This document shows positions 9,001 to 12,000 of a stretch of 64,000 bases of DNA, one piece after another. Made by a program: the position numbers. The stretch is from Escherichia coli. GTDB lineage: Bacteria; Pseudomonadota; Gammaproteobacteria; Enterobacterales; Enterobacteriaceae. Location: assembly GCF_003334785.1 (NCBI RefSeq), contig NZ_QOWV01000002.1; one strand, 5' to 3'. How positions within the stretch are numbered: the first letter of the stretch is position 1; each line of letters begins with the position of its first letter.

Positions 9001-12000
9001 TTGCTCAGACGTAGTGGATCAAGTGTGACACGGTTGTTACTACTGATGCCACGATATTCGATGTAATCTTCGTCTGCGAAACTTATGGTCGACCAAAGAC
9101 CACAACAGAGAAGAAAAATATAGGGTAAAAACTTCATGTGGTTAGCCGATTTTGTTACGTTGTGCGAATGTGTAAAGATCCATCAGTGATTTACATTCTA
9201 ATTTTTCCATCAGGCGACTTTTATAAGTGCTGACAGTTTTGTTGCTGATGAACATTTTTTCAGCAATGTCATTATTATCCTTGCCATCAAGAATATACCG
9301 CATGACACTAATTTCTTGTTTCGATAAGGAGTCGAGTTTTTGCTGGTCGGACGTTAAACTTCCAACAAACCGGTTGAGAGAGAAGGGGAAATAGCAGTAG
9401 CCATTTTTTGCAGCTTCAATAGCCGCAATGATATTGTTCATGCCTTCTTTTTTACTCACGAAACCATTAGCGCCAGCATCAGCACAATGTTTCCCGTAAA
9501 AATGGTCATTTTTAGCGGAGACGATAATAATAATTCCGCTATATTGGCGCTTCCTCAGCGTTTCTAACACCTGGATACCGTTAACTCCGGGGATATCGAC
9601 ATCAATGATGACGATATCAGGCTTAAGTGTTTCCACCCGCTGAACGGCACTTCCGCCTTCAGTCAACTCTGCTAAGATTTCAATATCGTTTTTGATCAAT
9701 AAATTACGAATTGCTGCGATAGCAAGAGGATGGTCATCAATAATTATTGCGTTCATAGATTATTCCCTTTGCAATGAAGCATCTCCCTTCTCCCTGTAGT
9801 AATACAGACATAAGGCGTCATCTCATTTTCTCAATAAAAATAAGAAAATCTGAGCTTCCTTTAAGATAATTCGACAAGTATACCATATAAATAGTCGGCA
9901 TAAATGAAATGTCAACAATAAAATCAGGGATTGTACCGATGATTTATAGTTTCAAGTTGGCACTATAAGTCTTCTTACTAATCCTACAGGCGTAAGAATT
10001 GTATTGCAAAAGCCACGGTTTAGTCCTCTGTTGTTTTTTTTGCACCTCATTTAAATTAGGCCTCCAACGTTCCTGGGATAATGTGCAACACATGCACTGT
10101 GTTTGATATGAAGAATGAATGCTCTTTTCATTCAATTCATAAATTTCATCTATGAGAAATGAGAGATAATAGTGGAACAGATTAATTCAAATAAAAAACA
10201 TTCTAACAGAAGAAAATACTTTTCTTTATTGGCGGTAGTTTTATTTATTGCGTTTTCAGGTGCCTATGCCTATTGGTCAATGGAATTAGAAGACATGATT
10301 AGTACAGATGACGCCTATGTCACGGGGAATGCAGATCCAATTTCTGCACAAGTCTCAGGTAGTGTCACTGTCGTTAATCATAAAGATACGAACTACGTTC
10401 GACAAGGTGACATTTTAGTTTCACTGGATAAAACTGATGCCACTATCGCACTCAATAAAGCTAAAAATAATCTGGCAAATATTGTTCGGCAAACGAATAA
10501 ACTATACTTACAGGATAAACAATACAGTGCCGAAGTCGCTTCAGCACGTATTCAGTATCAACAATCTTTAGAAGATTATAACCGTCGAGTGCCGTTAGCG
10601 AAGCAGGGGGTTATTTCAAAAGAAACGCTGGAGCATACCAAAGATACGTTAATAAGTAGCAAAGCGGCATTGAATGCCGCTATCCAGGCTTATAAAGCGA
10701 ATAAAGCTTTAGTAATGAACACACCATTAAACCGTCAGCCACAAGTCGTTGAAGCGGCGGATGCAACTAAAGAAGCCTGGTTGGCGCTTAAACGTACGGA
10801 TATTAAGAGTCCGGTTACCGGCTATATTGCCCAGAGAAGTGTTCAGGTCGGCGAAACAGTGAGCCCCGGACAATCGTTAATGGCTGTCGTACCGGCACGT
10901 CAAATGTGGGTTAATGCCAACTTTAAAGAAACACAACTCACGGATGTACGGATTGGTCAATCGGTCAATATTATCAGCGATCTTTATGGTGAAAATGTTG
11001 TGTTTCATGGTCGGGTGACAGGGATCAATATGGGAACCGGCAATGCGTTCTCCTTATTACCTGCACAAAATGCGACAGGGAACTGGATCAAAATCGTTCA
11101 GCGTGTACCGGTTGAAGTTTCTCTTGATCCAAAAGAACTCATGGAACACCCCTTGCGTATTGGTTTATCGATGACAGCAACTATTGATACGAAGAACGAA
11201 GACATTGCCGAGATGCCTGAGCTGGCTTCAACCGTGACCTCCATGCCGGCTTATACCAGTAAGGCTTTAGTTATCGATACCAGTCCGATAGAAAAAGAAA
11301 TTAGCAACATTATTTCGCATAATGGACAACTTTAATGGCAATCACTAAATCAACTCCGGCACCATTAACCGGTGGGACGTTATGGTGCGTCACTATTGCA
11401 TTGTCATTAGCGACATTTATGCAAATGTTGGATTCCACTATTTCTAACGTCGCAATACCGACAATATCTGGCTTTCTGGGAGCATCAACAGACGAAGGCA
11501 CCTGGGTTATCACCTCGTTTGGTGTAGCAAATGCCATTGCGATCCCTGTTACTGGCAGGTTGGCACAAAGAATAGGCGAATTAAGATTATTTTTACTTTC
11601 AGTCACTTTTTTTTCGCTGTCTTCATTAATGTGTAGCCTATCGACCAATCTTGATGTGCTGATATTTTTTAGAGTCGTTCAGGGGTTAATGGCGGGGCCG
11701 TTAATTCCACTGTCACAGAGTTTATTATTAAGGAATTATCCGCCAGAAAAAAGAACATTTGCTCTGGCATTATGGTCAATGACCGTGATTATCGCTCCGA
11801 TATGTGGGCCGATATTGGGCGGTTATATTTGTGATAACTTTAGCTGGGGTTGGATATTTTTAATCAATGTCCCTATGGGGATTATCGTCCTGACATTATG
11901 CTTAACCTTACTTAAAGGAAGAGAAACTGAGACTTCACCGGTCAAAATGAATCTACCAGGACTGACCCTGTTAGTGCTCGGTGTTGGTGGCTTGCAAATT

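What the first reader, a model, noticed from the sequence alone, without database searches (positions are those of the whole stretch)
9973..9998. Inverted repeat resembling an EvgA operator in the evgA-emrK divergent region
TTCTTAC-N12-GTAAGAA, with a central TCCTACA, lies between the divergently transcribed evgAS and emrKY operons. It resembles the EvgA half-site TTCPyTACA that I recall from the literature, consistent with EvgA autoregulation and activation of emrKY.
Basis: partly seen in the sequence, partly recalled or inferred. Interest (0 to 1): 0.2.

Follow-up and report, generated by a model that had tools for sequence, protein, structure and literature searches.

The report
Known EvgA operator upstream of emrK

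Summary
The window is E. coli K-12 over this region. It is identical to MG1655 and reverse-complemented. The repeat lies in the 415-bp evgA-emrK divergent spacer.

The repeat is real but mis-measured. It is TTCTTAC (9972-9978), 13 bases, GTAAGAA (9992-9998), not N12 from 9973.

The functional unit is not that outer pair.

A matrix built only from the boxes of four other EvgA targets (frc, yfdX, safA, ydeP) ranks this site first in the 64-kb window. Both half-sites are unchanged in about 5,370 of 5,399 E. coli genomes and are kept in two divergent lineages. The box has the orientation and gapless register of the other EvgA promoters only toward emrK.

The left arm is polymorphic: T9976 in 2,537 genomes, C in 2,467, and C in both outgroups. 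The perfect outer repeat is therefore a derived feature of part of the species.

The literature I could read supports direct emrKY activation. Autoregulation of evgAS is reported but not seen in reporter assays. Verdict: already known, low interest.

The parts
9981..9998 (+). 18-bp EvgA box ATCCTACA-GG-CGTAAGAA (8-2-8 inverted repeat), which is K-12 MG1655 2,483,513-2,483,530; written here in the direction of emrK
   Evidence: It is the only match in the window to TTCYTACANNTGTARGAA at 3 mismatches or fewer (2 mismatches). It is the top score in the window on a matrix trained on frc, yfdX (two boxes), safA and ydeP only: 17.3 bits against 10.6 for the next site elsewhere in the window, with 0.05 expected in the window. 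Both half-sites are unchanged in about 5,370 of 5,399 E. coli genomes. A box is kept at the same place in L010 and L011.
9981..9988 (+).
   Evidence: Half-site matrix score 10.3, the best in the spacer. Invariant in 8 diverse E. coli.
9991..9998 (+).
   Evidence: Half-site score 7.8. 7 of 8 columns are invariant across four lineages. It is part of the most conserved 18-nt stretch of the whole spacer, 9993-10010, with 17 of 18 columns invariant.
9972..9979 (+).
   Evidence: Score 7.8 with T9976 (about one such site expected by chance in the spacer), 2.6 with C9976, and negative in the outgroups. T is in 2,537 genomes and C in 2,467. C is present in L010 and L011, so it is ancestral.
10004..10009 (+). 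-35-like hexamer TTGCAA of the inferred EvgA-dependent emrK promoter (inference)
   Evidence: It sits at offsets 6-11 after the box, where the other EvgA promoters have TCACAA, TTTCAA, GCTCAG and GCGCAC, with CA invariant at offsets 9-10. It lies inside the most conserved stretch of the spacer. The Enterobacter homologue has TTGCAG at the same offset.
10027..10032 (+). Weak -10-like region TCTGTT; predicted emrK transcription start near 10039-10044 (inference, not verified)
   Evidence: The gapless register with frc, yfdX, safA and ydeP peaks at shift 0: 75 matches against a mean of 51, z = 3.2. The consensus promoter scan finds no strong sigma-70 promoter facing emrK, as expected for an activator-dependent promoter.
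10172..12873 (+). emrK (10172-11335) and emrY (11335-12873), the operon controlled from the box
   Evidence: ORFs and RefSeq annotation of identical DNA.
5544..9756 (-). evgA (9142-9756) and evgS (5544-9137), which encode the regulator that binds the box and its sensor kinase
   Evidence: ORFs and RefSeq annotation.
9870..9915 (-). evgA core promoter region: -35 TTGACA (9915-9910), annotated 5'UTR start at 9880, and an alternative start near 9870
   Evidence: The leader sequence used in PMC11052181, Table S5, begins at window 9880. PMC11210196 numbers the evgL start codon as +89, which implies a start near 9870. The box centre is therefore about -110 to -120 from the evgA start.

Best explanation
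Positions 9981-9998 are the EvgA operator of the emrKY promoter. A dimer of phosphorylated EvgA is a NarL/FixJ-type response regulator, so its helix-turn-helix domains sit on two inverted half-sites 2 bp apart. It binds ATCCTACA-GG-CGTAAGAA.

The box lies just upstream of a weak core promoter facing emrK. That promoter has a -35-like TTGCAA 5 bp after the box and a poor -10 about 17 bp further on. The box therefore spans roughly -58 to -41, and the bound dimer recruits or stabilises RNA polymerase, so emrKY is transcribed only when EvgS is active.

It is a third half-site-like sequence created by a C-to-T change at 9976 in about half of E. coli.

Shown here: the motif match, conservation, orientation and register. 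Taken from the literature: EvgA binds and activates the emrKY promoter. Inferred: the exact promoter hexamers, the transcription start near 10039-10044, and the mode of polymerase contact.
For: (1) Motif. The 18-bp consensus hits only upstream regions of known EvgA targets: 4 hits in 25 kb against 0.31 expected (yfdX twice, frc, emrK) and 3 hits in 10 kb against 0.16 expected (safA, ydeP and one weak in-gene hit). A matrix trained without emrK ranks 9981-9998 first in the window, with 0.05 expected.

(2) Conservation within E. coli. Both half-sites are unchanged in about 5,370 of 5,399 genomes. The one common variant inside the 18 bp falls in the 2-bp spacer (G9989T, 370 genomes).

(3) Conservation in divergent lineages. 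They keep a box at the same place, and it is closer to consensus. L010 has the perfect TTCCTACAGGTGTAAGAA and L011 has TGCCTACACGTGTAAGAA. The stretch 9993-10010 is the most conserved 18 nt of the spacer.

(4) Orientation. All five other boxes read ..CYTACA-NN-TGTAAGA(A/C) toward the activated gene, and the emrK box reads this way toward emrK.

(5) Register. The sequence after the box aligns without gaps to the four other promoters only at shift 0 toward emrK (z = 3.2). Toward evgA it does not (z = -1.0). An Enterobacter homologue keeps the emrK-like neighbour, the box orientation and the register.

(6) Literature. EvgA binds the emrKY promoter directly (PMC9496106, PMC8174306 and PMC5706723, all citing Kato 2000). 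emrK induction needs evgA (PMC6393483). An EvgA site is found at all directly regulated genes (PMC4283999).
Against: None of the primary papers with the footprint, gel shifts or the emrK transcription start could be read (Kato 2000, Masuda & Church 2003, Tanabe 1998, Itou 2009). The match between this 18-mer and the protected region is therefore not verified here.

The consensus itself comes from my recollection of Masuda & Church 2003. It was, however, re-derived from the sequences.

The site has 2 mismatches to that consensus. The training set is small, and frc/yfdX and safA/ydeP look like related pairs, so the register test rests on about three independent promoters. The predicted -10 is very weak.
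Confidence: 0.85

Rival explanations
1. EvgA recognises the outer pair TTCTTAC-N13-GTAAGAA, or all three half-sites together, for example two protein units two helical turns apart or an extended oligomer.
For: In K-12 the left arm scores as well as the proximal half-site, 7.8 bits each. The outer arms are a perfect 7-nt repeat. Relatives such as BvgA are known, from my own knowledge, to spread cooperatively from a primary inverted repeat.
Against: The left arm is TTCTCAC in 2,467 genomes and in both outgroups. There it scores no better than background, 2.6 bits or less, with 10 or more such sites expected in the spacer. None of the five other EvgA boxes shows a third half-site at this spacing. 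As the left half of a canonical 8-2-8 site it would need TCCTACAG as its partner, which matches TGTARGAA at only 3 of 8 positions, and it would overlap the main box (read directly). emrK is EvgA-dependent in Shigella flexneri M90T (PMC6393483), but that strain's 9976 allele was not checked, so this does not bear on the question.
Confidence: 0.1
2. The same box also serves evgAS. It would be a shared divergent operator giving positive autoregulation. This can coexist with the best explanation.
For: EvgA is listed as autoregulating with one binding site, on weak evidence (PMC3219618, citing Tanabe 1998 and Eguchi 2003). PMC11210196 says EvgA 'is reported to be autoregulatory'. EvgA-like boxes lie upstream of evgA homologues in Hafnia, Klebsiella, Buttiauxella and Enterobacter.
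Against: evgA does not respond to EvgS-activating acidity in reporter fusions (PMC11210196). [quoted passage not shown] The box centre is about 110-120 bp upstream of the annotated evgA start. The orientation and register typical of EvgA promoters are absent toward evgA, z = -1.0.
Confidence: 0.25
3. It is a chance inverted repeat, or a hairpin-forming element with no protein partner.
For: Short perfect inverted repeats are common in this AT-rich spacer, four with 7-nt arms. The hairpin is weak, -2.8 kcal/mol, z = -1.3.
Against: The sequence match to independent EvgA boxes, the near-invariance across about 5,400 genomes, and retention in divergent lineages all argue against chance. The region lies upstream of the evgA start used in two papers and of the inferred emrK start, so it is probably not transcribed. 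No Rfam family matches; the best hit has E = 0.42 and lies elsewhere in the spacer.
Confidence: 0.03

Closest known systems
EvgA boxes of ydeP, safA-ydeO, yfdX and frc (yfdW) in E. coli K-12: the 18-bp inverted repeat TTCPyTACA-NN-TGTAPuGAA (Masuda & Church 2003, recalled from memory; cited for yfdX and yfdWUVE in PMC3720670)
   Same: Same 8-2-8 architecture and same conserved core CTACA-NN-(T/C)GTAAGAA. Same orientation toward the activated gene and same gapless register to the downstream promoter.
   Different: There are two departures from consensus: A instead of T at position 1 and C instead of T at position 11. Both are 'repaired' in lineage L010. The box sits in a divergent spacer shared with the regulator's own operon. 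In about half of E. coli an extra half-site lies 9 bp upstream.
NarL/NarP '7-2-7' heptamer pairs (NarL/FixJ family of response regulators; established knowledge)
   Same: Inverted half-sites separated by 2 bp and bound by a dimer of GerE/LuxR-type helix-turn-helix domains. EvgA belongs to this family (PMC9496106).
   Different: The half-site sequence differs (NarL TACYYMT against EvgA TTCYTACA). NarL also uses many single or irregularly spaced heptamers, whereas every EvgA box found here is a single 8-2-8 unit (two such units at yfdX).
BvgA primary binding sites at Bordetella vir-activated promoters, such as the inverted heptads TTTCCTA at fha (established knowledge; EvgAS was named for its similarity to BvgAS, PMC9496106)
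   Same: A related regulator, and a related half-site that contains TTCCTA, arranged as an inverted repeat upstream of an activator-dependent promoter.
   Different: BvgA spreads cooperatively over secondary low-affinity sites down to the -35. There is no evidence here for such an array. The only extra half-site lies on the promoter-distal side and is not conserved.

Membership tests
EvgA operator (18-bp EvgA box) | Two 8-bp half-sites TTCYTACA in inverted orientation separated by exactly 2 bp | tested here: met
   9981-9998 ATCCTACA-GG-CGTAAGAA has 2 mismatches in the 16 specified positions. It is the only hit in the window and the top matrix score.
   The spacer is 13 bp, not 2. The left arm cannot pair canonically with any neighbouring half-site without overlapping the real box (read directly). 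The left arm is not conserved.
EvgA operator (18-bp EvgA box) | Lies upstream of a promoter whose activity depends on EvgA | tested here: met
   The box centre is 182.5 bp upstream of the emrK start codon. emrK induction is EvgA-dependent (PMC6393483, PMC5706723, PMC8174306).
EvgA operator (18-bp EvgA box) | Fixed orientation and distance to the core promoter, shared with other EvgA-activated promoters | tested here: met
   The orientation is the same as in all five other boxes. Gapless register z = 3.2 toward emrK and -1.0 toward evgA. There are only about three independent promoters, so the support is moderate.
EvgA operator (18-bp EvgA box) | Physically bound by (phosphorylated) EvgA: gel shift, footprint or ChIP | not testable with these tools
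   Secondary sources say EvgA binds the emrKY promoter region (Kato 2000, via PMC9496106 and PMC8174306). The primary papers with coordinates are not held.
EvgA operator (18-bp EvgA box) | Evolutionary constraint on the half-sites but not on the 2-bp spacer | tested here: met
   The half-sites are unchanged in about 5,370 of 5,399 genomes. The common variant G9989T is in the spacer. The spacer also varies in the outgroups, GG against CG.
Autoregulatory operator of a two-component operon | Transcription of the regulator's own operon changes when the regulator is activated | not testable with these tools
   The literature is contradictory. Autoregulation is reported (PMC3219618, PMC11210196), but no response of evgA was observed (PMC8174306, PMC11210196, PMC6393483).

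The most novel reading that the evidence does not exclude
The C-to-T change at 9976 is derived. It is present in 2,537 of 5,426 complete E. coli genomes, including K-12. It turns a background sequence into a consensus-grade third EvgA half-site 9 bp upstream of the box. This could be a functional cis-regulatory polymorphism that changes EvgA occupancy, and with it the level or threshold of emrKY (or evgAS) expression between lineages of the species. That would add a cis layer to the known natural variation in EvgS sensing.
Probability: 0.1. Interest if true: 0.3.

Novelty: already known. Interest (0 to 1): 0.08.

Why it matters
It matters little beyond correct annotation. The EvgS/EvgA-emrKY link is a textbook example of a two-component system controlling a drug-efflux pump, and PemrK is a standard reporter of EvgS activity.

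This check adds four modest points:
- It fixes the precise 18-bp unit at K-12 2,483,513-2,483,530.
- It shows that the box is oriented and phased for emrK rather than for evgA.
- It shows that the eye-catching perfect outer repeat exists in only about half of E. coli.
- It gives a testable prediction for the emrK transcription start, near window 10039-10044.

Tried and rejected
Literature:
- The primary papers that would settle the footprint and the transcription start are not held: Masuda & Church 2002 and 2003, Ma 2004, Kato 2000, Itou 2009, Eguchi 2003.
- Full-text searches for the motif letters returned nothing on EvgA or only unrelated primer sequences.
- A broad ChIP/SELEX search was uninformative.
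- Several EvgA papers give no site coordinates.

RNA or hairpin reading: rejected. The stem is weak, no Rfam family matches, and the position is upstream of both transcription starts.

Generic inverted-repeat significance: rejected as an argument, because the spacer holds several equally good short repeats.

Consensus promoter scan: no sigma-70-like promoter facing emrK. I read this as compatible with an activator-dependent promoter, not as evidence against one.

First matrix test by shuffling: it looked weak because of a small-sample matrix. I replaced it with an exact score distribution.

Comparison with more distant genera:
- The Hafnia box sits in a different register, with the peak at shift +6, so it was not used as support.
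- The Klebsiella and Buttiauxella matches are only half-boxes with 4 mismatches.

Full report
Locus. The window around the finding is identical to E. coli K-12 MG1655, reverse-complemented: NC_000913.3 2,483,300-2,483,820 equals window 9691-10211. The ORFs are evgS (5544-9137, minus strand), evgA (9142-9756, minus strand), emrK (10172-11335, plus strand) and emrY (11335-12873, plus strand). They carry those names in RefSeq records with identical DNA. The finding lies in the 415-bp divergent spacer, 9757-10171. This region is present in 5,399 of 5,426 complete E. coli genomes.

The observation. The sequence reads TTCTTAC TAATCCTACAGGC GTAAGAA. The arms are at 9972-9978 and 9992-9998 with 13 bases between them.

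As a plain inverted repeat it is not special. The spacer holds four perfect 7-nt repeats with short spacers, where dinucleotide shuffles give about one. The hairpin is weak, -2.8 kcal/mol with z = -1.3. The meaning lies in the letters, not in the symmetry.

What the unit really is. I recalled the EvgA consensus as an 18-bp inverted repeat, TTCYTACA-NN-TGTARGAA (Masuda & Church 2003; that paper is not held, so this was a lead and not a test). I tested it on sequence.
- In a 25-kb stretch that includes yfdX and frc, it hits four times at 3 mismatches or fewer, against 0.31 expected. All four hits are upstream of EvgA-activated genes: yfdX twice, frc perfectly, and emrK.
- In the ydeP-safA-ydeO region of K-12 it finds the spacers upstream of safA and ydeP, plus one weak in-gene hit.
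- In the 64-kb window its only hit is 9981-9998, ATCCTACA-GG-CGTAAGAA, with 2 mismatches.
- A weight matrix built from the five other boxes alone ranks this 18-mer first in the window. It scores 17.3 bits against 10.6 for the next site elsewhere. An exact score distribution gives 0.05 expected in the window and 0.0006 in the spacer.

The left arm is a third half-site in direct orientation, 9 bp upstream of the distal half.

Conservation within E. coli. Eight E. coli spanning 94.7-100% identity in the spacer keep both half-sites unchanged. Exact-word counts over all complete genomes give three classes:
- 2,537 genomes with TTCTTAC plus the box;
- 2,467 genomes with TTCTCAC plus the box;
- 370 genomes with a G-to-T change at 9989, which lies in the 2-bp spacer of the box.

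Together, about 5,370 of 5,399 genomes have both half-sites intact. The one common variant sits exactly where the consensus is N. The left arm, by contrast, is split almost evenly between T and C at 9976.

Conservation in divergent lineages. Two divergent lineages have a box at the same place that is closer to consensus.
- L010 (EvgA 98% identical) has TTCCTACAGGTGTAAGAA, a perfect match.
- L011 (EvgA 94% identical) has TGCCTACACGTGTAAGAA.

At the left-arm position both have TTCTCATT or ATCTCATT, so C is ancestral. On a half-site matrix the left arm scores 7.8 bits with T, 2.6 with C and below zero in the outgroups. The most conserved 18 nt of the whole spacer across these lineages is 9993-10010, with 17 of 18 columns invariant. 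That stretch is the proximal half-site plus the next 12 bases.

Direction and mechanism. Written toward the activated gene, all five other boxes read ..CYTACA-NN-TGTAAGA(A/C). The better-conserved half is next to the promoter. The emrK/evgA box has this polarity toward emrK.

The 45 bases after the box align without gaps to the four other promoters best at shift 0: 75 matches against a mean of 51, z = 3.2. The same test toward evgA gives z = -1.0. Shared columns include CA at offsets 9-10, G at 19, TC at 26-27 and T at 31.

In this frame emrK has a -35-like TTGCAA at 10004-10009 and a poor -10 at about 10027-10032. That predicts a start near 10039-10044, with the box spanning about -58 to -41. 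This is inference. The consensus promoter scan sees no strong promoter there, which suits an activator-dependent promoter. An Enterobacter genome with a 68%-identical EvgA homologue keeps an emrK-like divergent neighbour, a box oriented toward it (GGACTACAGACGTAGGAA), and TTGCAG at the same offset.

Literature I could read. EvgA binds the emrKY promoter directly (PMC9496106, PMC8174306 and PMC5706723, all citing Kato et al. 2000). emrK induction requires evgA in Shigella (PMC6393483). An EvgA site is present at all directly regulated genes (PMC4283999). EvgA binds inverted repeats at yfdX and yfdWUVE (PMC3720670, citing Masuda & Church 2003).

On autoregulation the record is mixed. It is listed on weak evidence with one binding site (PMC3219618) and called "reported" (PMC11210196). 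Yet evgA does not respond to activating conditions (PMC11210196, PMC8174306, PMC6393483). The leader sequences used in two papers place the evgA start at window 9880 or about 9870. The box centre is therefore about 110-120 bp upstream of it.

Verdict. The finding points at a real and already described regulatory site. The repeat unit and spacer were wrong, and the autoregulation reading is doubtful.

The only mildly new point is that the perfect outer repeat is a derived polymorphism of about half of E. coli. I give a 10% chance that it has a functional effect. The finding is already known and of low interest.

Noticed in passing
window 9753-9782 (minus strand): A 9-codon leader ORF (MLHCKGNNL) whose stop codon overlaps the evgA start codon. 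It is annotated as evgL (b4781) in MG1655. Its translation is reported to be required for evgA translation and to be repressed by CsrA (PMC11210196).
   Followed up: partly
window 9944-9968 (larger imperfect arms 9938-9955 / 9957-9974): The palindrome TTATAGT-N11-ACTATAA lies immediately next to the EvgA box, between the box and the evgA -35. 16 of 25 columns are invariant across K-12, strain C9 and the two divergent lineages. No function is assigned. It could be a site for another regulator or a promoter element (TATAGT on the minus strand is -10-like).
   Followed up: partly
window 9795-9802 (minus strand): A lone good EvgA half-site, TTACTACA (9.8 bits), lies inside the evgA 5' untranslated region, with no inverted partner 2 bp away. 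It is probably chance.
   Followed up: no
window 9870-9915 (minus strand): There are two overlapping candidate evgA promoters. TTGACA-16-TATTTA gives the start at 9880 used in PMC11052181. An extended -10, TGGTATACT (9886-9878), fits a start near 9870, as implied by the numbering in PMC11210196.
   Followed up: partly
L011 (NZ_CACVAF010000001.1, 590-kb contig labelled Yersinia vastinensis IP38594), 949-3115: This contig has an emrK-evgA divergent pair with EvgA 94% identical to E. coli and an EvgA box in the spacer. That is unexpected for a Yersinia record. It points to horizontal transfer or a mislabelled assembly.
   Followed up: no
L012 (Hafnia alvei) 495-3115; L014 (Enterobacter MAG) 1012-3115: EvgA homologues of 66-68% identity also sit in divergent pairs with a palindromic EvgA-like box in the spacer. 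In Hafnia the neighbour is an arginine/agmatine antiporter (adiC-like, an acid-resistance gene) and the box is CGCCTACATACGTAGGAC. In Enterobacter the neighbour is an EmrA/EmrK-family adaptor.
   Followed up: partly
hit H1, NZ_CP011495.1 (E. coli NCM3722) 3723114-3725091: The evgA-emrK query matches in two pieces spread over 1,978 bp instead of 1,201 bp. An IS1A transposase and two evgA features are annotated there, which suggests an IS1 insertion disrupting evgA in this K-12 derivative.
   Followed up: no
search summary for window 9100-10300: About 20 of roughly 5,440 matches to this chromosomal region are on records typed as plasmids.
   Followed up: no
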